Position numbers and translations under genes: made by a program. The notes beneath the pieces were generated by a model, which made no database searches, was not told where the DNA came from, and worked only from the letters and a program-made list of their open reading frames with translations. A stretch of DNA of 63,148 bases, filler included, from Conidiobolus incongruus B7586 (Eukaryota), in NCBI GenBank assembly GCA_000697335.1. It is 31 parts of 31 records of this genome, joined end to end, with 100 filler letters (N's around TTAATTAATTAA, not from the genome) between each part and the next. Parts side by side here need not be neighbours in the genome. Positions count along the whole stretch, not along the records: positions 1 to 1,949 come from JNEM01005425.1; positions 2,050 to 5,457 come from JNEM01005428.1; positions 5,558 to 14,227 come from JNEM01005432.1; positions 14,328 to 15,510 come from JNEM01005433.1; positions 15,611 to 16,813 come from JNEM01005434.1; positions 16,914 to 17,914 come from JNEM01005437.1; positions 18,015 to 19,849 come from JNEM01005450.1; positions 19,950 to 21,359 come from JNEM01005456.1; 23 more parts are not named here. One strand, 5' to 3'. Position 1 is the stretch's first letter. Each line of letters starts with the position of its first letter. Below, piece by piece: positions 83 to 63,148 of this stretch.

Positions 83-84
83 TA

Positions 85-1658
85 TACTAACTTATAAAAA
101 TAAGTTATAAAATCAAAAATATATATATATTTTAATTAATAACTAAAATAATTATAGATATAAAATTAACTGAAACTATAATATAAAATTAAGGTATATT
201 ATTTGATAATAAATAAATATATTTAGATATATTTAATAAGCTATTGGCAAAAATATTAACCTTTAATATTCAACTAAAATAAGTTATAAATTTGTGTATT
301 TTTAAGATAAAGGAATATATTTAATAATATATAACCATATCTTTTTTCTTTCTTTGTTATTATTTTATATAATATTTTATAGATATAGTTAATTTTTTAT
401 ATTAATATTATTTTATTTAAATCCCTTTTTAAAAAAATTTATTTATATATTAATTTACTTAATAAAAAAACTAAATCAACTTATAATGTTATTAGAATTA
501 TTAGTGTTAGTTAGTTTACTATAGTTAAAGTTGTTAGGAATAACAATAAAAACATATTTAAATTTAAACTTAAGTATATTAAAGTCATAAATAAATATGA
601 TAAGAAATATATTTATAGGTTAGTTAATATAAGCAAATTTAGTATTATTGTAGAAATATAACAAAAACTATAAAACTATATAAAAATATTAGTTAATATT
701 AATACTATTATATATGTTTTATATTAATATAGATATTACTCACATTATAAGAAAAAACACCTTCAATTAAAAAAACCTTATTATAAAATTAAATTGGAAT
801 TTAAATATTATTAATGATATTAAATTAAAACTAATTAGAGTAAGGTTATTTAATTTAATGAAACAAAAATATATTTTAATAGATTTAATAAAAAAGCTAG
901 ATATTTTAAAAAAGATATAGAATTACTTTATGACTATTATGTTAATTTTACTTAAAAGTACAATGATAAGTTAATTATTATTTAAGGATATATTTTATCT
1001 TTAAATATAAAATATTTTTGTAAAGTTAATAGGGGAATTAATATTAAACTATACTAAAATATCTTAAATAATAAATTAAAAAAAATTATTAAATAATATA
1101 GGTTAAACAAATCTAATATTATTTTTTAATAATATAATACCTTTTGTTATATTATAACTTTTATTATCAAATAGCTTAAAAATAACAAGATATTAGTTAT
1201 AAAGTGGTTTTTTTAATTTCTTAACCTTAACCTAATTAAATACCTTTAGGATTAGTTAAAAAAAGTTATTAAAGCTTTCCCTTTAACAAAAAATTTAAAT
1301 TAGCTTTAAAAATATATATAAAAAGTATAGAATAAGATTAACCCTTTTTAATATAAAAAGTTAGTTGATTTTATACCCCATAAATTTAAAGAAGTTAGAA
1401 AAGTTAAAGGTAGATACACTAAGTTTTAATTTTTTTTATCACCAAAAACCTATAAATTTATAACTTATTTTAGGTAAAATTTAATAATTTATATTTTAAC
1501 CAATTAATAACTAAATACCATTATTTAATGATATATACTATTAATAAATATAATAGATTTTAACTATTTAATTTAAGTTTATTTCATTAAATATTAATTA
1601 AGTTATTAGTAAAAATATTAGTGTTTTTGATTTTATGACTTATTTTTATAGGTTAGTA
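85..1658 (+). mobile_element. Full-length degenerate Tc1 (DD34E) transposon, subfamily 1, with IR/DR ends
   Basis: TIRs tactaacttataaaaataagttataaaatcaaaaa / tttttgattttatgacttatttttataggttagta, flanked by TA. Transition-mutated motifs VIWSDETKI (~845-871), KWPPQSPDLNPIEHLW (~1202-1249) and C-terminal KGGYTKF*. Confidence 0.93.
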
Positions 1659-1949
1659 TATATTTTATTTAAAAAAAATATTTATAAGTTTTGTTATTTA
1701 TATTATTTTTATTTATAAATTTATAAATTAAATACTTTTTCTAATTAAATTTTGAATTTAAGTATATCAAAAAAAATTAATAAAATATATTGAAATATGA
1801 TTAATTATTATTAAGTAATATATTTAAATAATATATTTTAATTATAATTAATTATAATAAGAGTTATACAAATTAAATATAAATATACAAATGACTCTAT
1901 TTTAAAATATATTTTCAAAACTAATTTAAAATTAAATTTATATAATATT

Positions 1950-2049
1950 NNNNNNNNNNNNNNNNNNNNNNNNNNNNNNNNNNNNNNNNNNNNTTAATTA
2001 ATTAANNNNNNNNNNNNNNNNNNNNNNNNNNNNNNNNNNNNNNNNNNNN
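1950..2049. other. Artificial contig-joining spacer (44 N + TTAATTAATTAA + 44 N), first of 30
   Basis: Identical 100-bp blocks start at 1950, 5458, 14228, 15511, 16814, 17915, 19850, 21360, 23743, 25159, 28513, 29833, 31355, 33090, 35071, 36538, 38396, 40130, 45329, 46566, 47836, 49467, 51310, 53260, 54625, 55936, 57925, 59580, 60737 and 61914. TTAATTAATTAA places a stop in all six frames. Confidence 0.98.
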
Positions 2050-5000
2050 AATTTATAATTAAATAAATTATATAGAAATATATATATGAATTTAAAAAAT
2101 TATTTTAAATACTCCCTTAGTAAATTTTTTAGTAAAGACATACTCTTTAAATTTTTATAAATAGGTATAATAAATAAAAATATTTTTAATATTCTCTAAG
2201 GATTCTTATATAACTTCTTTAATAGGATAATTTATTTATTTTATATATAAATAAAGCTTATTCCTAATAGATATAAATCTAACTATATAATTAATATAAT
2301 ATTTTTTTCTCTATTTTAATTAATAATTAAATTTTATTTTTCAGGTTTTGAATTGATTAGAAAAATATTAATATCTTTAAAATAAGGTTTGATTTTAGAT
2401 ATATTAAAAATAAAATTAATCCTCAAAATTAAAGTTAATTCTAAGATAATATTTTGAAAATTCAAATTAATAGATTAAATTTTATTAGGATTATAATAGA
2501 ATAGTAGATATTTTAGATTTAAGCTAGATTTAAATAAGATAAGTTTAAAGGTTAATTATTGTAAGTATATAAACATATTAGTTTTATATTTAAAAAGATT
2601 TTTAGATAACTTTAAATACTATAATTCTATAATACTTTAGTTTTCTTCTAAGTTAAATTTAACAAAGGAATTAATATATTTGATATTAGATTAAAATTCA
2701 ATATTATTTAAAGATAAGTTAATTTAAAATTTTAAAGCAATTGTAAATTATGATATTTATTATAATTGATAGAATAAAGGCTAAAACTTGTTAATTTATT
2801 AATCAAGGTATTGAATAAATAGTAAAGTTAATAAATAAAAGTATTTTAATTTAACTGATTAATATTGATATAACCTTTAATCATTTGCTTTAAAGTTTTA
2901 AAAAATTTTTCAATAAGTTTATTAATTTAGTGATAATTAGTAATAAACATAGTTAAATTAACCTTAAGGGAAAAAATAGTAACTTTTAAAATTAAAAGTT
3001 AAATCACATATTTCTGTTAGATATAATACTGTATAGAACTTTAAAATAAGCAAAGATATTAAAAAGTAATAGTTATATAATATTTTTAACTATATAAGCT
3101 TTAAAATAAAGAATAATATAAATATATTTAAAAAATATATTGGTTATAATTAATAAGTTAATATAACTATTTGTTTATTTAAGAATTTCTATATAATCAA
3201 ATTAGATTTGTTACTAAGTTTTATTAAAAACTTATAAGGGAAAAAGTCTACCATATTTTAATTACGAATTATATTCTATTCCCTAGTATATATCACAAAT
3301 ATTACTATATTTCTAAATTAATATAATTAAAGAAAATCAGTAATACTTGATTTTAATTTTGTTAAAAATTATTAATTTTGATATCTTTTAATAAATTAAC
3401 TAAAATATTTATTGAATATTATTTATTAAATTTTTAGAATATTAAAGACATATAAATAAATATTATAATATAATAAATTATCAATAATTTTAAATCTCTT
3501 ATTATTTTTTAATTTGTTTTCTAATAGTTTAAAGGGTTTTTCTTTAACTAAAATAAAAAAATTATTATTTAGTAAAATTTTTTAAAATAATTTAATAAAT
3601 TGTTTTTTTTTTCTTTAATAATCATTAAGTTAATATTTACTAGGTTTTTATAATTAAAATAAAAGGATAAATATGTAAGATTTTTTAACAAAGTATTTAT
3701 AACATAATTTTATTATCCTAAAAGATATTAAATAAAGAAAAATTAAGCTTAGATAAGTTTAATATATTTAACTTCTCTTTTTAATAAATATTTTTTATTA
3801 TTTAAGTAAATAAGTAGTTTATAATATATAAGAATTAAAAAAATTATAAGATAAAAAAAATAAATGATTTTTAATTATTTTTATTAAAGTTAAAAGTTTT
3901 TATTTATAAACTAGGTATTTTAGTTTAGTTAGTTTTATTTTTTTAACTAAAAAATTATTAGTTTTAAGATAATATTTATAAAGTTAAACTCAATTTATTC
4001 TTCTTTATTCATTATTTTATTTTATACTTAAAAGGTAAAATATAAATTAAAATCTAATTAAGCTAATTATTTACTAATTATAAAAAAATTAAAGTTAATA
4101 AAAATAATAATAGGTAAGATAAGATAAAAATTAAATAATTTAAAAGCATTAATAATATAAAAAATTAAAACATTTATACAAAAAAATATATAATAGGGTA
4201 TGTTAATAAAAAGAGTTTATTTTTAAGAGATTAGTTAGAAAAGTTATAAATTATAAAAAAAAAATAAATGAAATTTTTAAAATATTATAATAATTTAAAT
4301 ATAAACATAAGTTAATCTTTATTTATAAATATAATAAAAGCTTTTACATTATTGAGTTTAGTTAGATAAATGTTAATTCTTTAAAACAAATAATATAATT
4401 ATAAAAGGTGATAAAAAAAACCTTAAAAATATATTTTGATAGTTTTAAAAATGATTTATATTCTTAAGTAATTTGTAAGATTTAATTAACATATTAAATA
4501 TATTCTCCTTTAATTATTAAATGGAATAAAGTATTATCAAGGTAATTAATAATAAAGTTATTAAAGATAAAGTTAAAAAGAGAATTGATGAATTAAATGA
4601 ATATTATAAAAATATTAAACAAATTAAAGTTTATAACAATAAATTTATAATAGCTTAATAGAATATTAAAAGTAATTAAAAAAATAGAATTTTTCTTAAC
4701 ATTAATATTATAATAATTATTTTTAATATTTATTTTAGTGTATATAGTTGATTTATGCAATTTATCATTAATATTATATAGGTTTAGTAATAAAGTTTTA
4801 TCTTTAATAGTTTTAAAATTGAAAATAAAATTATTAATATATAATTTTTAACTATTATTAGCTTTTTTGTATAAAGAAAAATAAAGATTTCTATGGTGAG
4901 GAAATAAGTTTAATATATTTATTTTCAAATAATTTTTAGATTTCTTTTTTCAAAGTTAGATATTATTTAAGAAATAAATGGTAAATAAATTTTAAATATA

Positions 5001-8058: not shown

Positions 8059-8899
8059 ATGCTTTCAAATTTGATCGTACTTGCTGTTTGCTTTTTGTCT
8101 TTGAACGCTGAGTCAGAAATTGAGGGGCGTATTATTAATGGAAGCGAAGCTCAACCATTTGCTTATCCATTCGTAGTTTCGCTCCAAGCTAATGGTCGTC
8201 ACTTCTGTGGGGGTTCATTACTAGATTCACGCACTGTCCTCACTGCTGCCCACTGTACCAATATCTATCCAAACAATCAAGTTACCGTGAATGTTAGACG
8301 TCATGATTTATCTAGGCAAGCATCCCAAGAAGGAGGACAATCAATTAGAATCACTAGACAAACACGCCACCCATCTTACAATGGCCAAACATTGGTTAAC
8401 GATGTTGCTATTTGGAAATTGGCTAGCCCTGTTTCAGCTCAAGTCTCTTATGTAACATTGGATGATGGATCACTTTCAAACCGAGTTGGTCTTCAAGCTG
8501 AGGCCATCGGTTGGGGACGCTATGATCCTTATACCACTGCTATGCCATCCCGTCTCCAGCGCACTGTCTTGCCAATTTTTGATACCCAACAATGTACTAG
8601 AGGATATGGATTCAATATCTCACCTCAGGCCCAAGTATGTGCTGGATATGCTCAGGGCATCACCTCTGTGTGTGAAGGAGATTCCGGAGGTCCTTTATTC
8701 GTCAGATCTGGTAATCAAGTCATTCAAATTGGTGTTGCTAGTTTTGTCAAAAACAGACAATGCTTGAACACTTATGCTCCATCGGTAAGCCAAATGAATA
8801 TGATTTGCTAAAAATATTTTGATACTAATTTTTAAATAGGTATTTGCTAGAGTTGCAAACTATAGATCTTGGATTGCCGACCAACAAAGACGATTCTAA
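8059..8899 (+). CDS. Secreted S1A (chymotrypsin-family) serine protease, elastase-like, 261 aa; exons 8059-8784 and 8840-8899
   Basis: Signal peptide MLSNLIVLAVCFLSLNA, activation site EGR|IING, motifs TAAHC, NDVAI and GDSGGP. A 55-bp GTAAGC...TACTAAT...TAG intron restores the C-terminus PS|VFARVANYRSWIADQQRRF*. Confidence 0.96.
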
Positions 8900-11073: not shown

Positions 11074-11912
11074 TTATGGCCTTCTTTGTTGATCCTGAAT
11101 CCAAGCTCTATAATTGGCAACTCTAGCAAATACCTAATTCAAAATGATTAATATGAAAAATTCAGATTAGAGTGAGATGAACTTACTGATGGAGCATAAG
11201 CATTCAAACATTGTTTGTTTTTGACAAAACTAGCAACACCAATTTGAATGACTTGATTACCAGATCTGACGAATAAAGGACCTCCGGAATCTCCTTCACA
11301 CACAGAGGTGATGCCCTGAGCATATCCGGCACATACTTGGGCCTGAGGTGAGATATTGAACCCATATCCGCTAGAGCATTGTTGGGTGTCAAAGATGGGC
11401 AAGACTGTACGCTGAAGACGAGATGGTAAAGCAGTAGTGTAAGGATCATAGCGTCCCCAACCAATAGCTTCAGCTTGGAGACCAACTCGGTTTGCGAGAG
11501 ATCCATCATCCAATGTTACATAGGAAACTTGAGCAGTTACGGGACTTGCCAACTTCCAAATTGCTACATCATTATTCAATGTCTGGTCGTTGTATTGTGG
11601 ATGACGAGTCTGTCTAGTGACTCTAATAGCTTGTCCTCCTTCCTGAGATGCTGGTCTTGATAAATCATGACGTCTAACATTAACAGTGACTTGACTATTT
11701 TGATACAAACTAGTACAGTGAGCAGCAGTGAGGACTGTGCGAGAATCCAAGAGAGAACCACCACAGAAGTGCTGACCATTAACTTGAAGAGATACAACGA
11801 ATGGATAAGCAAAGGGTTGAGCTTCACTTCCATTGATTATACGGCCTTCGGGAGTGGGACTGGCAGCCAAAGTTACGATAGTAGTGGCGAGCAAGATTAA
11901 ATTGCTAAGCAT
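11074..11912 (-). CDS. Secreted S1A serine protease paralog, elastase-like, 261 aa; exons 11912-11187 and 11133-11074
   Basis: Signal peptide, PEGR|IING and the catalytic triad motifs are present. A 53-bp GTAAGT...TAG intron sits at the same position as in gene 1, giving C-terminus VFARVANYRAWIQDQQRRP*. Confidence 0.96.
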
Positions 11913-13260: not shown

Positions 13261-13499
13261 CATCTATGTTTAATTTCAATAAATGAAAATAGTAATTTTC
13301 AATGATCAAGTTCCATAAGTTATAAAACCATTATATTTATCAAGCAAATAAAGAAATATGGTTAAATTCAGATATAAAATATCAAAGTAATACTGCGAAT
13401 GATTCAATCAATATTTAATATATATTACCTTAGATTTAAAGAAATTTAAGATTTTTTAATATCTAATTTTTAAATATATTATTAGTTTCAAAAAATATT

Positions 13500-14227
13500 T
13501 GCAAAATAAGGAATAATATAATTTTAAACTCTATATATAAATATATAATAGCTTTTTTGATTAAAGAATAAATTTTTAAAATAAATAGTTCAATTTAATC
13601 ATATTTAAATCAAATAATAATTATCAAAAGTCTGGTATTTTAGTATTGGTAAAGCTTAACTATAAACCCTCTAAAATTATTTGAAAATTAAAAACAAATT
13701 TCAATAATAAAGTATTATATAGTTTAGGAATTTTTTATTATATAAATTATTTTAAAAATAAGAAAAAATAATTAAAATTTGTTAAACTTTATAAAGCTAA
13801 TTTTAATAATTATTTTTTTAATTATTAATAGAATTAAATATTTGAAAAAATATTATTTATTTTAATTAAAAAAGTATTAAACCATATTAATATTAATTAT
13901 ATAAGTATTCTATATATATTAAATTTAAGCTTAAATTAATAAATAAAAATATAAAATTAGTATTTTATAATTAAATTAAAACTTAATAAAACTACAATAG
14001 TTATTATTAATTATAATATATTAAATTATAACCAAAACCTAAGCTTTTTATAATAAATTATCATAATTAATAAAAGTTGTTTATTCTATATAATTGTCTA
14101 TTAAAATATAAATCAAGATATTAAAATAAATAAAATTAATCTCTTTTATAAATCATTTTAATAAATATTTTATTTATAAGTAAAAAATAATTATTATAAT
14201 AAAATATAATAATTTATGCTATTTTTA
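13500..14227 (+). mobile_element. Degenerate mariner element, 5' part
   Basis: Colinear with the copies at 18215-18938, 30285-30960 and 62021-62740. Boundaries are approximate. Confidence 0.75.
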
Positions 14228-14399
14228 NNNNNNNNNNNNNNNNNNNNNNNNNNNNNNNNNNNNNNNNNNNNTTAATTAATTAANNNNNNNNNNNNNNNNN
14301 NNNNNNNNNNNNNNNNNNNNNNNNNNNATAAAAAGTTTAAATGATTATTTATAAATTAAATAATAACAATTAATATTAATTTAAAATTAAAATATATTT

Positions 14400-16791: not shown

Positions 16792-16913
16792 TATTTTTAA
16801 AATTATAACTTATNNNNNNNNNNNNNNNNNNNNNNNNNNNNNNNNNNNNNNNNNNNNTTAATTAATTAANNNNNNNNNNNNNNNNNNNNNNNNNNNNNNN
16901 NNNNNNNNNNNNN

Positions 16914-19825: not shown

Positions 19826-19949
19826 AAAATATTTATTTTATTTTAATCANNNNNNNNNNNNNNNNNNNNNNNNNNNNNNNNNNNNNNNNNNNNTTAATTA
19901 ATTAANNNNNNNNNNNNNNNNNNNNNNNNNNNNNNNNNNNNNNNNNNNN

Positions 19950-47241: not shown

Positions 47242-47309
47242 TATTTTAAAAAATACAAAAAAAATACTTTATAAATATTATGATATTTTAACTTCAAATA
47301 TCATAATAG

Positions 47310-47835
47310 GCTTATTATAATTTAAAAATATATATTTTCCTTTAATGTAAAATATTTATATAAAGTTAATAAAAGAATTATTATTAAAATATATTAAAAC
47401 ATTTTAGAAAACAAATTAAATAAAACTATAGAATAGTTTAAGTTAAATAAATTAGATATTATTTTTTTACAAAGAAAATACATTTTGTTATATTATTATT
47501 TCAATTATTATATGATTTAAAAATAATAAAATAATAGTTATGAAGTAGCTATTTTAATGCCTTAACCTTAATCTATTTAAATAAATATAGAATTAATTAA
47601 ATAAATTAAAGCTTTCCTATTAACAAAAAATTTAAATAAATTTTAAAAATATATTTAAGAAACTTAAAATTAAATTAATTATTGTTAATATAAGAAATTA
47701 ATTGACTTTAAATACTATAACCTTAAAAAAGTTAAAAAAGCAAAAGATAGATATATTAAGTTTTAATTTTCTTTTTATAACCAAAATACACAGGTTTATG
47801 ACTTATTTTAAGTAATTTAGATTTTAATATATTAA
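47310..47835 (+). mobile_element. Tc1 3' fragment
   Basis: A second colinear catalytic-domain relic that ends at the inner DR caggtttatgacttattt. Confidence 0.78.
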
Positions 47836-49370: not shown

Positions 49371-51409
49371 TATATATTAAAGTTTTTTTCTAAATAACAA
49401 ATTATTATTTATGAACAAAATAAACTAACCATTAATATTATAGTTCTTTTTAATTAATTTAAATTANNNNNNNNNNNNNNNNNNNNNNNNNNNNNNNNNN
49501 NNNNNNNNNNTTAATTAATTAANNNNNNNNNNNNNNNNNNNNNNNNNNNNNNNNNNNNNNNNNNNNTTAAATTAATCTAATTAAATTAATAATATATAAG
49601 AGTTACTTATTATATGTTATAAAATTAATTCAAGATATAAAATTAGATATATTAATTAATAAGACCATAGTTATAGTCTTATAATTAGCAAAATTTATAT
49701 ATTATATATGGTATAATTAAATTATTTTATTTTAAAAAAAATTATAAAGAATATTGACCTTAGTTTTAAATTTATATTAAAAAAAATTTATTTTTTTTAA
49801 TTCAATATTTATTTAATATTAAATTTTAAAAATTTGAGTTTCTAAATTTAATAATTAAATCAGAATAAACAAATATTAAAATACTTTCAAATTATTTATT
49901 TTAATATAATGATAATAAATTAAATCAGTTTATAATTTAAATTAATTTTAAATTTTTTAATTTCAAATAAAATTAATATTAATATAATATTAAAATAATG
50001 ATTTAAAATCTAATTTTTAATTGGTATTCAAAATAGACTAAAAATATAATATTATTGATATAATTTTATCTTAAAATAAAATGAAAATTAAATAATGATA
50101 TTTATTATAATTTGAATATTTTAGAATGATTTTAAATATTATAATTTGAATTTCAATTTTATCAGTTTAATATTGCTAAATTAATAAGTTTTATAATTTT
50201 TAAATTTTAACCAATCCTAATCACCTAAATTTCATTTTTTATTATCATTATTTAATTAATATAAAATTAAATCATTAGTTTAGTTTTTCTTAACTAATTA
50301 AACTCTCATAATAAGATTATTATTTTTTTTATTTTATTTTTGAATTAAATATAAAAAGAATATAAAAATAATTAAAAATTAGCTAAAATTACTATTAATT
50401 TCAAAAATATATAATAGCTTGAATAATCCTGTTAATATAACCAAGCCCCCCAAAATTCTATATAGAATAGCTAAGTTCAAAAATCTTTAATATAAGCCTA
50501 ATATTGAAGAATATCCCAGACAATATTATAATTCTTTTAAAGTAAAACCATTCTCAAGAGAATTATTTAAATGGGGGTTAAAAAAGCTAGACTTCATTAA
50601 ATATTAGTTAAAAAATAAAATATTTAGATTTAAGGCTGAGGAAACTTTTCAAAAATTTTATATCCCTATTTATAAAAATAAATATCAAAATTACAAAAAA
50701 TATAAGAATTATAAATTTTTTTAATTAATATTTATAATATTAACTAACTTAAAAAATATTTAAGAAAGTTCTTATTTTATAATATTATTTAAGATAACGC
50801 AAAAATTTTTAAATTATTGATATAAAATAATTATCAAGTTGATATAGTAAATTTATAAATATATTATCTAATATATATTATAATAAAAAATTTTTATTAG
50901 AATTTTTATTTATTTTAACTTTACTTATTCAAAGTAATAATATTGCTAGTATTTTATAATTATATAATAATAATAATAATTAATTTTATATTTTTAATAT
51001 AATTTTAACTTATTTTTGATAGATATTGAAATTTGATTTAATATTAATATCCCTTTATTTGCTTTAACTTAGTTTTTAATTAAATATACAAAAAGGGAAC
51101 TTATGAAATATAAGGTTTAGCTAATAATAAGTAAAGAAGATTTAAATCAGTTAGAAATATATTATAAAGTGCTAGAAATAATAGAATACTTTTATAAAAA
51201 TTTATATTTAAGAATAATTTATAATCAAAGTTAAAATCCTCAATAAACCAAATTAAAAGTTATATAAGGGACTTTAAAGTTTAAATAATTTTATTTATTA
51301 TTTATATTTNNNNNNNNNNNNNNNNNNNNNNNNNNNNNNNNNNNNNNNNNNNNTTAATTAATTAANNNNNNNNNNNNNNNNNNNNNNNNNNNNNNNNNNN
51401 NNNNNNNNN

Positions 51410-51645: not shown

Positions 51646-51795
51646 TATAAATATAATAATAAAAAGGTTATTGATATAATATAAAAAAAATATAAAATTA
51701 ATATAATATAAAATATAATAATATATTATAAAATATAGTATGTAAATATAAACAAAGTTTAATTAAACTTCAAATTAAAATAAATTACTAATATA

Positions 51796-53259
51796 TACTA
51801 ACCTACAAAAATAAATCATAAAACCAAAAAGATATATATTTTAATTAATAACTAAAATAATTATATAAATTAGATTACTTAAAACTATAATATTATAATT
51901 AAAGTATATTATTTAATAATAAATAACTATAATTAGATATATTTAGTAAACTATTAACAAAAATATTAACCCTTAATATTTAACTAAAGTGAGTTATAAA
52001 TTTACAGGTTTTTAAGATAAAAGGATATATTTAATAATATATAATAATATCTTTTTTCTTTCTTTATTATTATTTTATATCATATTTTATAGATATATTA
52101 AATTCTTTTATTAAAATTTTTTATTTAAATCCTTTTTTAAAAAAATCTACTTATATATGAATTAACTTTATAAAAAAGATAAATCAACTTATAATATTAC
52201 TAGAATTACTAGTGTTAATTAATTTATTATAATTAAAGCTATTAAGAATAATAATAAAGAAATATTTAAACTTAAACTTAAGTGTGTTAAAATTATAAAT
52301 AAACATGATAAGAAGTATATTTATAGGTTAGTTAATACAAACAAGTATAGTACTACTATAGAAATATAATAAGAATTATAAAACTATACAAGAGTATTAG
52401 TTAACACTAATACTATTATATATGTTTTATATTAACATGGATACTATTTATACCTTAAGAAAAAACACCCCAATTAAAAAAATCCTATTATAAAGTTAAG
52501 TGGGAGTTTAAATGTCATTATTAATATTAAACCAAAACTAATTAAAATAAGGTTATTTAATTTAATCAAATAAAAATATACCTTAGTAAATCTAATAAAA
52601 AAGTTAAATGCTTCAGAAAAGATATAAAACTATTTTATAACTATTATGTTAATTTTATTTAAAAATATAATAATAGGTTAATTATTGTTTAAGGATATAT
52701 ATTATCTTTAAATATAAAGTATCTTTGTAAAATTATTAGGGGAATTAATATTAAGATATATTAAAGTATTTTAAACAATAAATTGAAAAAAACTATTAAA
52801 TAATATAGGTTAAATAAATTTAATGTTATTTTCTAGTAAGATAATGCTTTTTGTTATATTATAGCTTTTATTACCAAATAGCTTAAAAATAATAAGATAA
52901 TAGTTATAAAGTAGCTTCTTTAATCTTTTATTTTTAATTTAATTAAACATTTTTAAGATCAATTAAAAAAAGCTATTAAAGTTTTCCCTTTAGCACAAGA
53001 TTTAGATTAATTTTAAAAATATATTCAAGAAGCATAAAACTAAATTAACCTTTTTTAATATAAAAAGTTAATTGATTTTATACCCTATAAACTTGAAGTA
53101 ATTAAAAAAGTTAAAGGTAAATATATTAAATTTTAATTTTTTTTATTATTAAAACTTAAAAATTTATAACTTATCTTAAGTTAAATTTAAAAGTTTATAT
53201 TTTAACCAATTAATAGATAAATATCATCATTTAATAATATATATAATTAACAAATATAA
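51796..53259 (+). mobile_element. Tc1 subfamily 1 copy showing DD34E spacing
   Basis: TTC TAG TAA GAT AAT GCT (FQQDNA). D at 52840 and mutated E at 52945 have 34 codons between them. Confidence 0.92.
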
Positions 53260-54724: not shown

Positions 54725-55935
54725 TTATTTAATTTATTAAAATATATTTTTATTTTATTAAACTAAATAATTCTATTTTAATTAATTTTAATTTAATACA
54801 CTAATTTATAAATATAAGTTATAAAATTAAAATATATATATTTTAATTAGTAAGTAAAACAATTATATATTAGATTATTTAAAACTATAATATATAATTA
54901 AAGTATAATATTTAATAATAAATAAATATATTTAAATATATTTATTAAACTATTAGTAAAAAAATTAACCTTTAATATTTAATTAAAATAAACAATAAAT
55001 TTGTGGGGTTTTAAGATAAAATGATATATTTAATAATATATAACTATATTTTTTTTCTTTTTTTGCTATTATTTTATATAATATTTTAAAGATATATTGA
55101 ATTTTTTTTAATATTATTATACTTAAATCTCTATCTAAAAAAATCTATTTATATATTAATTAACTTTATAAAAATAATAAATTAACTTATAATATTACTA
55201 GAATTACTAATGTTAGCTAGTTTACTATAATTAGGATTATTAAGAATAATACACTAACTTGCAAAAGTGAGTCATAAAATCAAAAATACCTATATTTTTA
55301 CTAATAACTTGATTAATATTTAATGAAATAAACCTAAATTAAATAATTAAAATTATAAATATTTATTGATAAAATAAATCATTAAATTATAATATTTAAT
55401 TATTAATTAATTAAAATATCAACCCTTAAATTTTATTTAAAATAGGTTATAAATTTATAGATTATTAATATTAAAAAAATTAATACTTATAATATTTATC
55501 TTTAGCTTATTTGATTTCTTTAAGTTTATAGAATAAAGAATCAAATAACTTTTTATATTAAAAAAATTAATTTTGTTTTATATTTCTTAAATATATTTTT
55601 AAAATTAATAAAAATTTTTTATTGGGTGAAAATCTTAATAGCTTTTTTTAACTAATTCTAAAGATATTTAATTAAGTTAAGGTTAAAAAATTAAAAAAAT
55701 TATTTTATAACTATTATCTTGTTATTCTTAAGTTATTTAATAATATAAGTTATAATATAATAATAAATGTTATCTTATTAAAAAATAATTTTGGATCTGT
55801 TCATCCTATATTATTTTATAGTTTTTTTTTATTTTTTATTTAAAATATAATATTATATTTGAATAATAATTCCCTTATTATTTTTATATAGATATTTTAT
55901 TTCTAAAAATTATATATATTTTATAAATAATAATT
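54725..55935. mobile_element. Three nested Tc1 pieces: host (-) 54725-54798, insert (+) 54799-55251, insert (-) 55252-55935
   Basis: TA-cactaatttataaatataagttataaaatt starts at 54799 and TA-cactaacttgcaaaagtgagtcataaaatcaaaaat starts at 55252. Confidence 0.82.
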
Positions 55936-56035: not shown

Positions 56036-57924
56036 TATATACTAGTTTTATAATTAAAAGTATTTCTAAATAATATTAAATACTGTTATTTTATAATCTT
56101 TTAATTTTCTTCCAAGTTAAATTTAATAGAAAAGTTAATATATTTAATATTAAATTAAAATTCAATAATATTTAAAAATAAATTAATTTAAAATTATAAA
56201 ATAATTAATAAATTTGGATGTTTATTATAATTAATGAAATAAAGGTTAAAATCTTTTGATCTGTTAATAAAGGTTTTTAAAGAATATTACAGTTAATAGA
56301 TATAAATATCCTGATTTAAATGATTAGTGTTTATATAAACTTTAATCATTTATTTTAAGGTTTTAATAGTTTTTTTAATAAGTTAATTAATTTAATAATA
56401 ATTAGAAATAAACATAGTTAGATTAATTTTAAAAAAAATAATGACTTTCAAAATTAAGAGTTGAATTACCTATTTTTATTAGATATAATAGTTTATGGAA
56501 TTTTATAATAAATTAAAAATATTAGAGAATAACAACTATATAATATATTTAACTTTTAAAGTTTTATAACAAATAATAAAATAAATATAATTAAAAAATA
56601 TATCTATTATAATTAATAAGTTATGATAACAATTTGTTAATTTAAGAATTTTTATAAAATTAAGTTAAATTTATTCTTAAGTTTTATTAAAAATTTGTAA
56701 ATGGATAAGTTTATTATATTTTAATTAGGTATTATAATTAATCTTTTAGTATATATTATAAGTAGTAATATATTTTTAAATTAATTTAATTAGGGAAAGC
56801 TAATAATATTTTATTTTAATTTTTTTAATAGTCTTCAATTAATTTTAATACTCTTTAATAAATAAGTTATAATATTCATTAAATATTATTTGTTAAATCT
56901 TAAGAATATTAAGAAAAAATAAGTAATTATTATAGTATAGTAGGTTAGTAATAATTTAAAATGTTTTAACATTTTAATTAGTTTTTGATAATTTAAAGAG
57001 TTTTTTTAATTATAATAAAGAGTTTATTATTTAATAATGTTTTGTAAAATAGTTTAATAAGTTTTTTATTTCTTTTATTAATAAACATTAAGTTAATATT
57101 TGGTAGGTTTTTATAATTAAAATAAATTGATAAATATATAAGATTTTTTTATAAAATATCTATAACATAATTTTATTAGCTTAAAAGATATAAAATAAAG
57201 AAAAAATAAGCTTAAATAATTTTAATTTATTTAACTTATCATTTTATTAAATACTTTTGGGTATTTGATCAAATAAATGATTTGTAATTTATAAATACTA
57301 CGAAAAAATTATAAAATAAGAAATATAAATGATTTTTGATTATTTCTACTAAAGTAAAGAATTTTTATTTATAAACAGGTATTTTAATTTAGCTAGTTTC
57401 ATTTTTTTAATTAGAATGTTATTAACTTTAAGATAATATTTAAAAGGTTAAATTTAATTTATTCTTTTTTATTTATTATTTTATCTTATAGTTAAAGGGT
57501 AAAAAATAAATTAAATTTAAGTTAACTATTTATTAATTATAAAAAAATTAAAATTAGTGAAAATAATAGTAGGTAGTTTTAAATTAAAAATAGATAAGAT
57601 AAAACCATTAATAAAATAGAAAATTAAAGCCTTTATATAAAAAATATATAATAGGCTTTATTTAAAAAAAGAGTTTTTTCTCAAGAGATCAGTTAATAAA
57701 GTTATAAGTTCAATAAAAAAATTAATGAAATTTTTAAAGTAATTTAATAATTTAAGTATAAACATAAATTGATCTTTATTTATAAATATAGTAAAGGTTT
57801 TTTATATTATTAAATTTAATTAAATCAATGTTAATTCTTTAAAAAAATTGAAATAATTATAGAACAAAATAGAAAAAGCATTAAAAATATATTTTAATGA
57901 TATTAAAGATAATTTATTTTCTTA
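56036..57924 (-). mobile_element. Second copy of degenerate Ty3/gypsy pol (RT end, RNase H, integrase)
   Basis: Colinear with ~2575-4465 and independently mutated. Confidence 0.85.
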
Positions 57925-58024: not shown

Positions 58025-59424
58025 TAACCTTTAATATTTAACTAAGGTGAGTTATAAATTTGTGGGTTTTTGAGATAAAAAGATATATTTAATAATATAT
58101 AACTATATCTTTTTTCTCTTTTTGATAATATTTTATATAATATTTTATAAATATACTAATTTTATTTTATTAGTAATATTATACTTAAATCCCTCTCTAA
58201 AAAAATCTACTTGTACATTAATTAACTTTATAAAAAAAGTAAATCAACTTATAATATTATTAGAATTACTAGTGTTAATTAGTTTATTATAGTTGAAATT
58301 ATTAAAAATAATAATAAAGAAATATTTAAACTTAAACTTAAGTATGTTAAAATTATAGATAAATATAATTGGAAGTAAATTTATAAGTTAGTTAATATAG
58401 ACAAATATAGTATTATTATAAAAATACAACAAAAATTATAAAACTATATAAGAATATTAATTAACACTAATACTATTATATGTATTTTATACTAATATAA
58501 ATACTATTTACACTTTAAGAAAAAACACCTTTAATTAAAGAAATCTTATTATAAAATTAGGTGGGAGTTTAAATATTACTACTAATATTGAACTAAAACT
58601 AATTAGAGTAAAGTTATTTAATCTAATAAAACAAAAATATATTTTAGTAGATTTAATAAAAAAACTAAATACTTTAAAAAAATATAAAACTACTTAATAA
58701 CTATTATATTAATTTTACTTAAAAGTATAATAGTAGGTTAATTATTATTTAAAGATATATGTTATTTTTAAGTGTAAAGTATTTTTGTAAAGTTAATAAA
58801 AGAATTAATATTGAAATATATTAAAATATTTTAAATAATTAATTAAAAAAAACTATTGAATAATATAGGTTAAATAATTCTGATGTTATTTTCTAGTAAG
58901 ATAATATTTTTACTATACTATAACTTTTACTATTAAATAACTTAAAAATAACAAAATAATAGTTATAAAGTAGCTTCTTTAATTTTTTAACTTTAATCTA
59001 ATTAAACACCTTTAGGATTAATTAAAAAAAGTTATTAAAGTTTTCCCTTTAATAAAAAATTTAAATCAATTTTAAAAATATATTCAAGAAGTATAAAATA
59101 AGATTAACTTTTTTTAGTGTAAGAAGTTAGTTGATTTTATATTACACAAACTTAAAGAAGATAGAAAAGTTAAAGGTAAATATACTAAGTTTTAATTTTT
59201 TTTATCATCAAAAACCTATAAATTTATAACTCACCTTAGGTAAAACTTAAAGGTTTATATATTAACCAATTAATAATTAAATATCATCATTTAATAATAT
59301 ATATAACTAATAAATATAATAGATTTTAATTAATTAAAATAGGTTTATTTTATTAAATATTAATTAAGTTATCAGTAAAAATATAAGTGTTTTTGATTTT
59401 ATAACTTATTTTTACAGGTTAGTG
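58025..59424 (+). mobile_element. Tc1 subfamily 1 copy; transposase pseudogene ~58181-59195 (~337 codons)
   Basis: Inner DRs aggtgagttataaatttgtggg / cctataaatttataactcacct. The right TIR ends caggttagtg-TA. Confidence 0.92.
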
Positions 59425-59679
59425 TATTAATTATTATTTTGAATTTTTTAAGATAAATTAAAATAAATACCTTTTAATTAAATAATCATAAGAAATAATC
59501 TTTAAATTTTATTTTATAAATTTTAATTTAAAAATACAATAAGATATTAAATCAAATTGATCTTTTTTATAAATTACAANNNNNNNNNNNNNNNNNNNNN
59601 NNNNNNNNNNNNNNNNNNNNNNNTTAATTAATTAANNNNNNNNNNNNNNNNNNNNNNNNNNNNNNNNNNNNNNNNNNNN

Positions 59680-60736
59680 AATATTTAATATAATAAACCT
59701 AAATTAAATAATTAAAATCTATTATATCAATTTATAATATATATAATTAACTAATAATATTTTTTTATTAATTGGTTAAAATATAAAACTATAAATTTTA
59801 CCTAAAATTAGTAATAAATTTATAGATTTTTGATGATAAAAAATTAAAACCTAGTGTATCTACCTTCAGCTTTTATAACTTTTTTAAGTTTTTAGGGTAT
59901 AGAATTAATTATCTTTTTATACAAAAAAGGGTTAATTTTATTCTATATTTTTTAATTATATTTTTAAAGCTGATTTAAATCTTTTGCTAAGGGAAAAACT
60001 TTAATAGATTATTTTAATTAAACTTAAAGATATTCAATTAGATTAAGGTTAAAAGATTAAAAAAGCTACTTTATAACTGTTAACTTATTATTTTTAAGTT
60101 ATATAGTAATAAAAGCTATAATATAACCAAAGATATTAGCTTGTAGGAAAATTATATTAGATTTGTTTAATCTATATTATTCAATGATTTTTTTAATTTA
60201 TTATTCATAATATTTTATTATATTTTATTATTAATTCCCTCATTAATTTTATAAAGATATCTTATATCTGAAGACAACATATATCCCCAAATAATAATTA
60301 ACCTATTATTATACTTTTGGGTAGAATTAATATGATAGTTATAAAGTAATTTTATATTTTTTCTAAAGTAACTAGCTTTTGTATTAAATTTACTAAGATA
60401 TATTTCTATCTTATCAAACTAAATAACCTTATTTAAATTAATTTTAATTTAATTTTAATTATAATATTTAAACCCTTGCTTAGCTTTATAATGGGATTTC
60501 TTTAGTTAGGGGTGTTTTTTCTTAAGATATAAATAATATTTATATTAATATAAAATATATATAATAATATCAATATTAACTAATATTCTTATATAATCAT
60601 ATAGTTCCTGTTATATTTTTATAATAATATCATATTTACTTGTATTAACTAACTTATAGATATATTTCTTATTATATTCATTTATAATTTTAATATATTT
60701 AAGTTTCAATTTAAATGTATTTTTATTATTATTCTT
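59680..60736 (-). mobile_element. Degenerate Tc1 copy
   Basis: Retains ATT TGG GGA TAT ATG TTG TCT TCA (WG.M motif) at ~60268-60291. Confidence 0.88.
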
Positions 60737-60836: not shown

Positions 60837-61913
60837 TTTATAAAAAAATAAATTAACTTGAGATATTGTTAAAATTACTATTGTTAGTTAATCTACTATA
60901 GTTAAAGTTATTAAGAATAATAATAAAAAATATTTAAATTTAAAATTAAATATATTAAAATTATAAATAAATATAATAAGAAGTATATCTATAGGTTAGT
61001 TAATATAAGTAAGTATAGTATTACTATAGAAATATAATAGGAATTATAAAACTATACAAAAATATTAGTTAGTATTAATACTATTATATATACTTTATAT
61101 TAGCATAAATATCACTTATACTTTAAGAAAAAACACCCTTAACTAAAAAAATCTTATTGTAAAGTTAAGCAAAAGTTTAAATGTTATCATTAATATTAAA
61201 CTAAAACTAATTAAAATAAAGTTATTTAATTTAATAAAATAAAAATATACTTTATTAAATTTAATAAAAAAGTTAAATGTTTTAAAAAAGATATATAATT
61301 ATTTTATGACTATTATGTTAATTTTACCCATAAGTATAATAGTAGATTAATTATTATTTAGGGATATTTATTGTTTTTAGGTATAAAGTATCTTTATAAA
61401 GTTAATAAAAGAATTAATACTAAAATATACTAAAGTACTTTAAATAATAAATTAAAAAAAAACTATTAAATAATATAAGTTAAATAAATCTGAAGTTATT
61501 TTTTAGTAAGATAATATCTTTTGTTATATTATATCTTTTATTACCAAATAGCTTAAAAATAATAAGATAATAGTTATAAAGTAGCTTCTTTAATTTTTAA
61601 CTTTGATCTAATTAAATACCTTTGGGATTAGTTAAAAAAAGCTATTAAAGTTTTCCCCTTAGTAAAAAATTTAAATTAACTTTAAAAATATATTTAAGAA
61701 ATATAGAGTAAAATTAACCTGTTTTAGTATAAAAAGTTAATTGATTCTATACCCTACAAACTTAAAGAAGTTAGAAAAGTTAAAAATAAATATATTAATT
61801 TTTAAATTTTTATCACTAAAAACCTATAAATTTATAATTTACCATAGGTAAAATTTAAAGGTTTATATTTTAACCAATTAATAACTAAATATCATCATTT
61901 AATAATATATATA
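60837..61913 (+). mobile_element. Degenerate Tc1 copy
   Basis: Retains CTT TGG GAT (LWD) at ~61620 and is colinear with the family. Confidence 0.88.
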
Positions 61914-62020
61914 NNNNNNNNNNNNNNNNNNNNNNNNNNNNNNNNNNNNNNNNNNNNTTAATTAATTAANNNNNNNNNNNNNNNNNNNNNNNNNNNNNNN
62001 NNNNNNNNNNNNNAATAAAT

Positions 62021-63148
62021 ATATACAAAATTAATAGGAAATTATATATTTTTAATATATATATATATATAATAATTTTTTTTATTAAAAAAATTAACTC
62101 TTTAAAACTGGTTGTTTAATTTAATTATATTTAAACTAAATAGTGATCATCAAAAGTCTTTTATTTTGGTATCAATAAACTTAGCCATAAGTTTCTAAAA
62201 TTATTTGAAATTTATAAATATTTTTTGGTAATAGAAAATTATCTAAAATAACAATTTATTACTAGATAAGTTATTTTAAGATTAAAGGAGAAATTATCTA
62301 AAACCTGTTAAAATTTAAAAAATTAATTTTAATTGTTATATTTTTATTTATTAATAAAATAAAAAAGTATATTAAAAAATACCCTTTTATTTTAGATAAA
62401 GAATTACCAAGATATTTTAATATTAATTATATAAGTATTTTATATATATTAAAATTTAAAATTAATAAATAAAAATATAAAATAAATATTTATAATTTAA
62501 CTAAAGCTTAAAAAAAGCTAGAATAGATATTATTAAATAAAACTTACTAAGATATAGCTAGAAACCAAGATTTTTAAAATAAATTATTATAATTGATAAA
62601 TCTTTAATCTTTTTTTATAATTCTTTAATAAAACATAAATCAAAATATTAGATTAAGCTAAATCAACCCTTTTTATAAATTTCTTTAAATAAATACTATA
62701 TCAATAAGTGAATAATAATTATTAAAAAAGATTATAATAATATTGACTATTTTTATTTAATTTTTAAAGAAAAATAAATTAATAATAAATTATATATTAT
62801 TTTTTTAAATAAAACTATTTTTAACTAATATTTTCAATATAATTTAAGAAAATGTATTTCTTATATAATAATTATAAAATATATAAAGCTAAAGATAAAA
62901 ACAAACTTTCAAATTAAAAATAACTGGAAAAAATTACTATATCTAGTATATTCCTTAAATTATAACCCATGTGATTATAATTGTTTGGGATAAATAAAAA
63001 ACCAACTTATAAAAAAAATTCATATAAAAAAAATTAATTTTATATATAAAATATCAAATTTCAATTTTTAATAAAAATAAATGATTTTTAGGTATTAGAA
63101 CTTAATTAAAAAAATAACAAAAATTTATTAAAAATATAGGAAATTATT
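62021..63148 (+). mobile_element. Degenerate mariner element
   Basis: AAC TGG AAA AAA TTA ... TAT TCC ... TAT AAC CCA TGT GAT TAT at 62922-62978, followed by GGT ATT AGA (GIR) near the C-terminus. Confidence 0.88.

What the first reader, a model, noticed from the sequence alone, without database searches (positions are those of the whole stretch)
85..63148. RIP-like, repeat-targeted C>T hypermutation across three unrelated transposon classes in an apparently early-diverging fungus
Seen: Tc1, mariner and gypsy copies keep length and reading frame (the D34E and D34D spacings are exact), yet conserved codons are altered by transitions on both strands. Examples are CAG/CAA>TAG/TAA, TGG>TAG/TAA, CAT>TAT, ATG>ATA and T|GAA>T|AAA. 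Each copy retains a different subset of ancestral G/C (W at 1205, P at 26816, E at 48214, W at 61623). CpG is essentially absent in these copies but present in genes and unique intergenic DNA. Known: CpA/TpG>TpA in repeats is the signature of RIP, established in filamentous Ascomycota via RID/DIM-2. Inference: the protease, intron size and Tc1 type suggest a Zoopagomycota (Conidiobolus-like) host. There, such a system is not well established as far as I know and could use different machinery. CpT and CpC hits suggest a broader context than classical RIP.
Basis: partly seen in the sequence, partly recalled or inferred. Interest (0 to 1): 0.9.

Follow-up and report, generated by a model that had tools for sequence, protein, structure and literature searches.

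The report
Repeat-only C-to-T hypermutation, Conidiobolus-like fungus
Dead transposon copies in this very AT-rich, Conidiobolus-like fungus carry a heavy, context-dependent excess of C-to-T changes that the equally AT-rich DNA right beside them lacks, which likely reflects a RIP-like genome defence in a fungal lineage where none is established.

Summary
The observation largely holds. The window is not one locus. It is 31 short contigs joined by N44-TTAATTAATTAA-N44 linkers.

Three repeat families that cannot be aligned to each other show the signature:
- a Tc1 DD34E family (16 copies here, likely hundreds in the genome);
- a mariner-like DD34D family;
- an unclassified 1.9-kb family.

All three show recurrent, independent C>T/G>A loss on both strands. 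Ancestral C is retained in the order CpG (0.05-0.10) < CpA (0.18-0.33) < CpT (0.35-0.45) < CpC (0.55-0.73). CpG is 0 in 19.8 kb of Tc1 copies.

Extreme AT-richness is not the signature. DNA flanking the Tc1 copies has 10% GC, lower than the copies themselves, yet has normal CpA/TpG. By the composite RIP index, 25 of 27 repeat kilobases score positive and 11 of 13 non-repeat kilobases score negative.

The best named protein matches are Conidiobolus coronatus.

Not confirmed: gypsy identity, intact reading frames (1 of 11 copies), and "unrelated classes". The mechanism stays open between methylation followed by deamination and true RIP, because no genome or methylome was available.

The parts
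83..1670 (+). Tc1-like (DD34E) copy, subfamily A. The only copy with no indel across codons 130-450. Keeps the W near 1205.
15611..16802 (+). Tc1-like copy, subfamily A, cut by the contig start
16914..17914 (+). Tc1-like copy, subfamily A; fills a whole 1,001-base contig
19950..21359 (-). Tc1-like copy, subfamily B
26359..27973 (-). Tc1-like copy, subfamily B, with unique flanks in the same contig. Keeps the P near 26816. Summed contig depth is 3,664-64,020 against 29-407 in the flanks.
31458..33071 (-). Tc1-like copy, subfamily B
36931..38395 (-). Tc1-like copy, subfamily B
38622..40129 (+). Tc1-like copy, subfamily A
46666..47835 (+). Two partial Tc1-like copies in one contig (46666-47192 and 47193-47835)
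47937..49384 (-). Tc1-like copy, intermediate between subfamilies. Keeps the catalytic E near 48214; the D-to-E spacing of 34 was read here.
51670..53259 (+). Tc1-like copy, subfamily A
55236..55935 (-). Partial Tc1-like copy, subfamily A
58025..59462 (+). Tc1-like copy, subfamily A
59680..60736 (-). Tc1-like copy, subfamily A. Also keeps the E of the NPIEHLW-like motif.
60837..61913 (+). Tc1-like copy, subfamily A. Keeps the W near 61623.
28664..29832 (-). Mariner-like (D34D spacing) copy, used as the reference of family D
30199..31354 (+). Mariner-like copy; the D34D spacing was counted here
35171..36419 (-). Mariner-like copy
62014..63148 (+). Mariner-like copy
18129..19846 (+). Mariner-like copy in two pieces (18129-18942 and 19373-19846), split by 430 bases of 24% GC
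13417..15508 (.). Two most diverged mariner-like copies (13417-14227 coding +; 14336-15508 coding -). Composite RIP index is -0.08 and -0.23, so the footprint is faded.
2575..4466 (.). Unclassified 1.9-kb repeat, copy 1 (family C). Same CpA<CpT<CpC retention order; no Pfam hit in 6 frames.
56039..57924 (.). Unclassified 1.9-kb repeat, copy 2 (family C), 81% identical to copy 1
23843..25158 (.). Contig with no copy in the window but a repeat-type footprint (composite RIP index +0.76, CpG 0). Predicted to be a repeat elsewhere in the genome.
25259..26348 (.). Control: left flank of a Tc1 copy in the same contig. Low depth, GC 11.3%, composite RIP index -0.27, CpA observed/expected 1.06.
27984..28512 (.). 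Control: right flank of the same Tc1 copy. GC 10.8%, composite RIP index -1.02.
33190..35070 (.). Control: AT-rich contig (GC 11-12%) with no copy in the window. Composite RIP index -0.39 and -1.19.
8059..8811 (+). Trypsin-like protease gene 1 (Pfam Trypsin on its paralog). One of an inverted pair that is not hypermutated.
11148..11912 (-). Trypsin-like protease gene 2. 84.6% identical to gene 1 over 767 bases, GC 42%, intact ORF.

Best explanation
Transposon copies in this Conidiobolus-like fungus have lost about half of their G:C pairs to C>T/G>A transitions on both strands, in the order CpG > CpA > CpT > CpC, while adjacent non-repeat DNA of equal or lower GC lacks that footprint; this is likely caused by dense cytosine methylation laid on repeated DNA (CpG first, other contexts less) followed by deamination, a RIP-like genome defence in outcome.

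Shown:
- the direction of change;
- recurrence in independent copies;
- the context order in three families;
- restriction to repeats, with sharp edges at element boundaries.

Inferred:
- that a DNA methyltransferase-type enzyme marks the copies;
- that marking depends on repetition or transposon identity;
- that the changes built up gradually rather than in premeiotic bursts.
For: DIRECTION AND RECURRENCE
- In Tc1 subfamily A the A/T-polymorphic columns are almost all singletons (91 of 102), which means a star-like tree. The 282 C/T and A/G columns span all frequencies, and only 10 G/C columns are invariant.
- A star-tree model with a free root gives root GC 21.5%, P(C>T) 0.46, P(G>A) 0.43, P(T>C) 0.023, P(A>G) 0.025 and A<>T about 0.02. 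At G/C sites transitions outnumber transversions 15-19 to 1.
- Residues conserved in Sleeping Beauty (W, Q, P, E) are replaced by transition-derived codons.

CONTEXT
- Retention of ancestral C, ascertained in an outgroup: Tc1 CpG 0.05-0.08, CpA 0.18-0.27, CpT 0.35-0.41, CpC 0.55-0.56.
- Mariner-like family: 0.10, 0.23, 0.37, 0.58. Family C: CpA 0.31-0.33, CpT 0.43-0.45, CpC 0.58-0.73.
- Duplicated trypsin region: flat, 0.75-0.89.

REPEAT RESTRICTION
- Among AT-rich 1-kb segments, 25 of 27 repeat segments have a composite RIP index above 0 and 11 of 13 non-repeat segments below 0 (Mann-Whitney p 1.5e-5).
- Mean GC is 12.9% against 13.5%. CpG observed/expected is 6/115.6 against 35/64.7.
- Around copy 26359-27973, depth jumps from 29-407 to 3,664-64,020 exactly at the element edges. 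The flanks have GC 10.8-11.3% and an index of -0.27 and -1.02, against +0.68 inside.

NOT THE EQUILIBRIUM OF ONE GENOME-WIDE PROCESS
- Rates measured in the repeats predict CpA/TpA 0.030 and CpT/TpT 0.053. Non-repeat DNA has 0.176 and 0.132, and the flanks 0.12 and 0.10.
- T>C is not raised at TpA (0.022 against 0.0285 at TpT).

FOR METHYLATION RATHER THAN CLASSICAL RIP
- CpG is hit first and completely: 0 of 19.8 kb.
- There is no strand-coordinated clustering beyond adjacent CC pairs.
- The copies also carry sizeable background change, about 4.5% of A/T sites and 2-9 indels each. This allows a slow process.
- 5mC on transposons in CG and CHH contexts is reported in other early-diverging fungi: Phycomyces, and Linderina of the Zoopagomycota (PMC11258239, passages read).
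Against: - No methylation data and no genome were available, so no methyltransferase was seen.
- 5mC is described as scarce in Zoopagomycota overall (PMC11258239).
- The mariner-like family has twice the background A<>T change of Tc1 subfamily A (0.035-0.039 against 0.019-0.02) but the same G/C loss. That fits a process that stops, such as an identity threshold, better than a steady clock.
- Within-subfamily identities cluster at 80-87%, close to the identity limit recalled for RIP.
- A ~300-base repeat of very high depth at 10590-10900 keeps 38% GC and 6 CpG. A length threshold of RIP would predict this too.
- The comparison with non-repeat DNA assumes that DNA is near neutral equilibrium with the same AT>GC rate.
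- The 'non-repeat' label rests on this window, plus depth for one contig only.
Confidence: 0.45

Rival explanations
1. True RIP-type defence: duplicated DNA above a length and identity threshold is sensed by homology at a defined stage (before karyogamy or in zygospores) and mutated enzymatically in bursts. The enzyme would be a DNMT-like protein other than Pezizomycotina RID.
For: - The footprint is restricted to repeats with sharp edges.
- All four contexts are hit, with CpA above CpT above CpC as in RIP.
- The composite RIP index is +0.2 to +1.0 in repeats.
- Within-subfamily identity plateaus at 80-87%.
- Loss of G/C is not proportional to background age across families.
- A short (~300 base) high-copy repeat is spared.
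- The oldest, most diverged mariner-like copies have a faded footprint.
- RIP-index signal and DNMTs with RID-like domain layout were reported in Entomophthorales (PMC11105155, passages).
Against: - CpG, not CpA, is the preferred target.
- No strand-specific runs of mutations: at distance 3 or more, same-strand and opposite-strand neighbours both give z 2.2.
- A family that reached hundreds or more copies argues against an efficient RIP at the time.
- Trypsin paralogs 84.6% identical over 767 bases are untouched, though selection could explain that.
- Masc1/RID is reported only in Pezizomycotina (PMC5751038, passages).
- A kingdom-wide survey scores all 8 Zoopagomycota genomes, C. coronatus among them, 'no_rip' (PMC12543289, supplementary file 12).
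Confidence: 0.27
2. Ordinary neutral decay: the genome-wide mutation bias that keeps non-coding DNA at 10-13% GC simply erodes any GC-richer insert. The repeats look special only because they are out of equilibrium.
For: - Non-repeat DNA and flanks are as AT-rich as the copies or more so: 10-13.5% GC against 13-17%.
- Overall pairwise transition/transversion ratios are modest: 1.87, 1.73 and 1.16.
- A stationary non-reversible model fits an equilibrium GC of 11.9%.
- Copies carry normal-looking background change and indels.
- CpG is also somewhat low in non-repeat DNA, observed/expected 0.54.
Against: - The stationary model assumes its own conclusion. With a free root, the equilibrium GC of the repeat process is 5.4-8.7%.
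- The context test fails by 4-6 fold at CpA and about 2 fold at CpT. The reverse T>C rate shows no matching context effect.
- Non-repeat DNA has CpA/TpG in excess over ApC/GpT (ratio 1.2-2.0), whereas repeats have 0.36-0.8.
- The duplicated gene region shows no CpA preference.
Confidence: 0.15
3. A single-strand cytidine deaminase (AID/APOBEC-like) edits transposon DNA exposed during transposition, transcription or replication.
For: C>T is by far the dominant change. There is a slight strand asymmetry in the mariner-like family (C retained 106 of 343, G 144 of 352) and in family C.
Against: - In Tc1 the two strands are hit equally, 0.35 against 0.33. No copy shows a strong strand bias: the smallest Fisher p among 16 copies is 0.027.
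- There is no strand-coordinated clustering.
- The 3' neighbour governs the rate, whereas the 5' neighbour is what I recall for APOBEC enzymes.
Confidence: 0.05

Closest known systems
Repeat-induced point mutation (RIP) of Neurospora crassa and other Pezizomycotina (RID-dependent)
   Same: G:C to A:T transitions confined to repeated DNA, on both strands, governed by the 3' neighbour of C. They leave TpA excess and CpA/TpG deficit: the composite RIP index is positive in 25 of 27 repeat kilobases. Each copy is mutated independently.
   Different: - The context order here is CpG > CpA > CpT > CpC. I recall the Neurospora order as CpA far above CpT > CpG > CpC.
- The host is a Conidiobolus-like member of the Zoopagomycota, where Masc1/RID is reported absent (PMC5751038).
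- No strand-polarised runs were found.
- The family reached a very high copy number.
- Timing, homology sensing and enzyme are untested.
CpG-centred hypermutation of transposons in Basidiomycota (Microbotryum TCG-type 'RIP-like' changes; methylation-linked CpG decay)
   Same: CpG is the most strongly depleted target. The change is confined to transposons and occurs outside Pezizomycotina.
   Different: Here non-CpG cytosines are also lost far above background (CpA retention 0.18-0.33, CpT 0.35-0.45). The description of the basidiomycete pattern is recalled; only its citation in PMC11105155 was seen.
RIP-index signal reported in Entomophthorales (Zoophthora radicans 24.2% of genome; E. muscae, M. 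cicadina, E. maimaiga 2.4-5.7%) - PMC11105155
   Same: Same fungal subphylum, same type of dinucleotide index, and the same proposal that RIP-like mutation may exist outside Dikarya (passages read).
   Different: That report rests on the composite index in 1-kb windows. Here the evidence is alignment-based (direction, recurrence, context, element edges, matched AT-rich controls) and comes from a Conidiobolus-like genome. The 2025 survey scored the Conidiobolus coronatus genome 'no_rip'.
Transposon-targeted 5mC in early-diverging fungi (Phycomyces CG and CHH; Linderina pennispora) - PMC11258239
   Same: Cytosine methylation concentrated on repeats in CG and non-CG contexts. This could give the observed context order after deamination (passages read).
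   Different: That work reports no mutational footprint, and methylation of this genome is unknown.

Membership tests
RIP (sensu Neurospora) | Mutations are almost only G:C to A:T transitions | tested here: met
   P(C>T) 0.46 against C>A 0.026 and C>G 0.004. P(G>A) 0.43 against G>T 0.019.
RIP (sensu Neurospora) | Confined to duplicated DNA; unique DNA spared | tested here: met
   25 of 27 repeat kilobases and 2 of 13 non-repeat kilobases have a composite index above 0. The footprint stops at element edges. Limited to this window; depth was checked for one contig.
RIP (sensu Neurospora) | Strong CpA preference | tested here: not met
   CpA is preferred over CpT and CpC, but CpG is hit hardest. 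The CpA:CpC rate ratio is only about 3.
RIP (sensu Neurospora) | Length and identity thresholds for target recognition | tested here: inconclusive
   A ~300-base high-copy repeat is spared. Identities plateau at 80-87%. These are hints only.
RIP (sensu Neurospora) | Strand-polarised mutation within an event | tested here: not met
   Excess concordance is limited to neighbours 1-2 bases apart. At 3 bases or more, same-strand and opposite-strand pairs both give z 2.2. Many rounds could erase such polarity.
RIP (sensu Neurospora) | Dependence on RID/Masc1 and premeiotic timing | not testable with these tools
   No genome is held for the window. The literature reports Masc1/RID only in Pezizomycotina (PMC5751038).
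Tc1 (DD34E) transposons | Transposase catalytic domain homologous to Tc1/Sleeping Beauty, with 34 residues between the second D and E | tested here: met
   The profile of 41 read-through fragments hits 5cr4_A at E 2.6e-20 over residues 7-230 of 230. The spacing was counted in copy 47937-49384. Single copies reach only DDE_3 at E 0.0014, below the Pfam cut-off.
mariner (DD34D) transposons | Mariner-type transposase with D34D spacing | tested here: inconclusive
   The D34D spacing and an SPDL.P.DY-like remnant were read by eye in copy 30199-31354 (motif recalled). Pfam gave 0 hits in the 6 frames of 28708-29832. A 4-sequence profile gave 0 hits against solved structures.
Ty3/gypsy retrotransposons | Reverse transcriptase, RNase H or integrase domains | tested here: not met
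   0 Pfam hits in any frame tried of 2575-4466, 56036-57924, 23843-25158 and 4322-5457. No YxDD-like motif in the six-frame translation. Sensitivity on such degraded DNA is low.

The most novel reading that the evidence does not exclude
A genuine homology-triggered, RIP-type mutator operates in Zoopagomycota without the Pezizomycotina RID enzyme and with a CpG-first target order. Repeat-induced mutation would then either predate Dikarya or have arisen twice. The extreme AT-richness of such genomes hides it from the k-mer and index screens that scored this lineage 'no_rip'.
Probability: 0.27. Interest if true: 0.85.

Novelty: new variant of a known kind. Interest (0 to 1): 0.62.

Why it matters
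RIP-type genome defence is regarded as a Dikarya trait, mainly of Pezizomycotina.

- A 2025 kingdom-wide survey found repeat-enriched AT k-mers 'almost exclusively' in ascomycetes. It scored all 8 Zoopagomycota genomes 'no_rip' (PMC12543289).
- A 2024 paper saw only index-level hints in Entomophthorales (PMC11105155).

Here, alignments of three repeat families with matched AT-rich controls show a repeat-restricted, context-ordered C>T mutator in a Conidiobolus-like genome. If this holds genome-wide, three things follow:
- The known range of such defences widens.
- It offers a case where the enzyme cannot be RID.
- Composition-based screens would be shown to miss the signal when the background itself is about 10% GC.

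Tried and rejected
- Whole-genome access: none is held. So there was no search for DNMT or deaminase genes and no genome-wide family analysis.
- Orthologous control DNA: runs of the same species label (X5-X7) hold next to none of the gene contig. No substitution spectrum for unique DNA could be measured. No RNA holder is listed.
- Pfam on read-through translations: 51 frames scanned and 1 weak DDE_3 hit.
- Profile of the mariner-like family against solved structures: 0 hits.
- Profile of the Tc1 family against the 5.8-billion protein set: none at E 0.001 or better among 7,988 candidates. That search depends on shared words.
- Search for relatives of the MIT-domain protein: one relative at 81% identity, unnamed.
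- Protein Atlas on the trypsin: only broad animal-type trypsin clusters, no help with the taxon.
- YxDD-type regex: no match.
- Rfam and tRNA scans: 0.
It was due to adjacent CC pairs and vanished at distances of 3 or more.
- IQ-TREE 12.12 model: its equilibrium GC of 11.9% was set aside because the model forces the root to be stationary. It was replaced by a free-root star model.
- My first estimate of a rate ratio of 53 or more, from singletons alone, was too high and was replaced.
- Earlier findings of the scan: nothing for this genome.
- First self-BLAST timed out.
It was repeated on one contig.

Full report
WHAT THE WINDOW IS

GC is 10-15% over most of the 63,148 bases. Two islands reach about 28-36%. 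There are 60 runs of 44 N in 30 pairs, each pair around the word TTAATTAATTAA. The window is therefore 31 separate contigs of 1,001-8,670 bases strung together, not one locus. No whole genome is held.

Two contigs carry genes:
- 5558-14227 holds an inverted pair of trypsin-like protease genes (Pfam Trypsin, E 1.3e-44). The pair is 84.6% identical over 767 bases with GC 42%.
- 40230-45328 holds an MIT-domain gene.

The best named matches of the protease are Conidiobolus coronatus NRRL 28638 (60-68% identity) and Neoconidiobolus thromboides (41-43%). It is not a Pezizomycotina species.

THE REPEATS

Self-comparison finds one dominant ~1.5-kb family with 16 full or partial copies, 70-87% identical, falling into two subfamilies plus intermediates.

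Single copies are too degraded for Pfam. Of 51 frames scanned, one gave DDE_3 at E 0.0014. A profile of 41 in-frame read-through fragments hits the Sleeping Beauty SB100X catalytic domain (5cr4_A) at E 2.6e-20 over its whole length.

Each is kept by one or two copies, while the others read stop, L/F/S or K.

A second family of 8 copies, about 1.15 kb, reads as mariner-like with D34D spacing. That rests on a recalled motif, since neither Pfam nor a structure-bank profile matched. A third family of 2 copies, 1.9 kb and 81% identical, is unclassified.

I could not confirm any gypsy element.

Frames are not generally kept. Of 11 copies spanning 320 codons, only copy 83-1670 is free of indels. I counted 92 indel events in the 16 copies.

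Contigs from the source sample pile up on copy 26359-27973 to a summed depth of 3,664-64,020, against 29-407 on its flanks, with sharp edges. The family likely has hundreds of copies or more.

DIRECTION AND SIZE OF THE MUTATION EXCESS

Summed pairwise differences in the Tc1 family are A/G 8,332, C/T 7,657, A/T 6,505, A/C 1,157, G/T 746 and C/G 160. The raw transition/transversion ratio is only 1.87, because 87% of sites are A or T.

The column patterns settle the matter. In subfamily A, 91 of 102 A/T-polymorphic columns are singletons, so the tree is star-like. The 129 C/T and 153 A/G columns span all frequencies, and just 10 G/C columns are invariant. That pattern needs ancestral G/C lost independently, again and again.

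A star-tree model with a free root gives, for subfamily A:
- root GC 21.5%;
- P(C>T) 0.46 and P(G>A) 0.43;
- P(T>C) 0.023 and P(A>G) 0.025;
- A<>T about 0.02, and C>A 0.026.

The equilibrium GC of that process is 5.4% (8.7% for subfamily B, 6.1% for the mariner-like family), below the copies' present 12-15.5%.

A stationary non-reversible model in IQ-TREE gave 11.9%, but it forces the root to equilibrium, so I do not rely on it.

By inference, each 1.5-kb copy carries roughly 150 excess C>T/G>A changes on top of about 60 background substitutions. With about 5-6 indels per copy, the background looks like ordinary decay and the transitions are the anomaly.

CONTEXT

Ancestral C was ascertained in an outgroup so that the ingroup estimate is not biased. 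Retention by 3' neighbour:

| Sequence set | CpG | CpA | CpT | CpC |
|---|---|---|---|---|
| Tc1, two reciprocal tests | 0.05 / 0.08 | 0.18 / 0.27 | 0.35 / 0.41 | 0.55 / 0.56 |
| Mariner-like family | 0.10 | 0.23 | 0.37 | 0.58 |
| Family C | too few sites | 0.31-0.33 | 0.43-0.45 | 0.58-0.73 |
| Duplicated trypsin region | 0.75-0.77 | 0.87-0.89 | 0.80-0.82 | 0.78-0.83 |

In Tc1 the two strands are equal, 0.35 against 0.33. The trypsin region is flat, with CpA kept best.

IS IT REPEAT-SPECIFIC?

This is the crux, because the background is itself extremely AT-rich.

In about 1-kb segments with GC of 17% or less:
- 25 of 27 repeat segments have a composite RIP index above 0 (median +0.56).
- 11 of 13 segments without a copy in the window have an index below 0 (median -0.42; Mann-Whitney p 1.5e-5).
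- Mean GC is matched, 12.9% against 13.5%.
- CpG observed/expected is 6/115.6 against 35/64.7.

The two repeat exceptions are the most diverged mariner-like copies. The two non-repeat exceptions (23843-25158 and 50438-51309) may be repeats elsewhere in the genome.

Inside one contig, the low-depth flanks of a Tc1 copy have GC 11.3% and 10.8%, with indices of -0.27 and -1.02. The element itself has GC 17.0% and an index of +0.68. The copies are therefore GC-richer than their surroundings. AT-richness is the genome's background state, and only the dinucleotide footprint is special to repeats.

I also tested the rival that one genome-wide, context-dependent process acts everywhere and the repeats are merely out of equilibrium. 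Rates measured in subfamily A predict equilibrium CpA/TpA 0.030 and CpT/TpT 0.053. Non-repeat DNA shows 0.176 and 0.132, and the flanks 0.12 and 0.10. The reverse T>C rate is no higher at TpA (0.022) than at TpT (0.0285).

So C>T at CpA runs at least 4-6 times faster in repeats than the non-repeat composition implies, and about 2 times faster at CpT. This assumes near-equilibrium and equal AT>GC rates. Context-blind forces such as biased gene conversion would not produce the CpA/CpT difference.

I could not measure a spectrum in unique DNA directly, because runs of the same species label do not hold the locus.

MECHANISM

What is shown is a repeat-restricted, two-strand C>T mutator governed by the 3' neighbour, with the order CpG > CpA > CpT > CpC.

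I commit, at 0.45, to dense cytosine methylation of repeats followed by deamination. The reasons:
- CpG is erased first and completely.
- The remaining order matches what I recall of non-CG methylation preferences.
- There are no strand-polarised runs once adjacent CC pairs are excluded.
- The copies are old enough for a slow process.
- Transposon 5mC in CG and CHH contexts exists in other early-diverging fungi (PMC11258239, passages).

True RIP keeps 0.27. The reasons:
- Within-subfamily identities plateau at 80-87%.
- The mariner-like family has twice the background change but the same G/C loss.
- A ~300-base repeat of very high depth keeps 38% GC and 6 CpG.
- The most diverged copies have a faded footprint.

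Ordinary decay keeps 0.15 and a single-strand deaminase 0.05.

COMPARISON WITH WHAT IS KNOWN

- Classical RIP shares the transitions, the repeat restriction and the index. It differs in context order, host and (by the literature) enzyme. Masc1/RID is reported only in Pezizomycotina (PMC5751038, passages).
- PMC11105155 (passages) reported a composite RIP index above 0 in 24.2% of the Zoophthora radicans genome and 2.4-5.7% in three relatives. It states that RIP had only been observed in Dikarya and lists caveats.
- PMC12543289 (passages and supplementary files 1 and 12) found repeat-enriched AT k-mers almost only in ascomycetes. It scored all 8 Zoopagomycota genomes, including C. coronatus NRRL 28638 (39.9 Mb, 27.65% GC), as 'no_rip'.
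- My searches for 'repeat-induced point mutation' with 'Conidiobolus' or 'Zoopagomycota', and for 'RIP-like' with 'early-diverging fungi', found no alignment-based report for this lineage.

I rate the finding a new variant of a known kind.

LIMITS

- Only 63 kb of short contigs from a fragmented assembly were examined.
- 'Non-repeat' status is known from depth for one contig only.
- Selection on non-repeat DNA is not excluded.
- There is no methylome and no gene inventory.
- The mariner call and several comparisons with RIP rest on recall.

Noticed in passing
whole window; e.g. 1950-2049: The window is a chain of 31 contigs (1,001-8,670 bases) joined by 30 identical linkers of 44 N, TTAATTAATTAA and 44 N. 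Neighbouring pieces need not be neighbours in the genome.
   Followed up: yes
7960-8811 (+) and 11148-11924 (-): Inverted pair of trypsin-like serine protease genes, 84.6% identical over 767 bases, each with a short intron near the 3' end. Both ORFs are intact and not hypermutated, although they are duplicates of repeat-like length.
   Followed up: partly
about 10590-10900: Short (~300 base) G-rich repeat between the two protease genes. Its summed contig depth in 262-base bins is 482-594 (up to about 2,700 at single positions), against about 20-75 for the unique DNA around it. GC is 38% and 6 CpG are kept. There is no Rfam or tRNA match. It is a high-copy repeat that escaped the hypermutation.
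   Followed up: partly
41692-43900 (-): Gene for a serine- and asparagine-rich protein with an N-terminal MIT domain (E 1.7e-8). Its only relative in the 5.8-billion protein set is an unnamed protein at 81% identity.
   Followed up: no
23843-25158: Contig with no copy in the window that nevertheless has the full repeat footprint (composite RIP index +0.76, CpG 0, GC 12%). There is no Pfam hit in six frames. Probably a member of a family located elsewhere in the genome.
   Followed up: partly
18943-19372: 430 bases of 24% GC interrupt a mariner-like copy (18129-18942 / 19373-19846). This may be a later insertion. It has no CpG.
   Followed up: no
2575-4466 and 56039-57924: The unclassified 1.9-kb repeat has a marked excess of G over C on the + strand (141 against 92, and 152 against 73), with only modest strand asymmetry in retention. 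The skew looks ancestral to the element.
   Followed up: partly
5558-6343: The AT-rich start of the gene contig shows 3-5 times the unique depth (96-165) but no repeat footprint (composite RIP index -0.62, CpG observed/expected 1.07). It is either a low-copy repeat that is spared or spurious AT-rich matches at 80% likeness.
   Followed up: no
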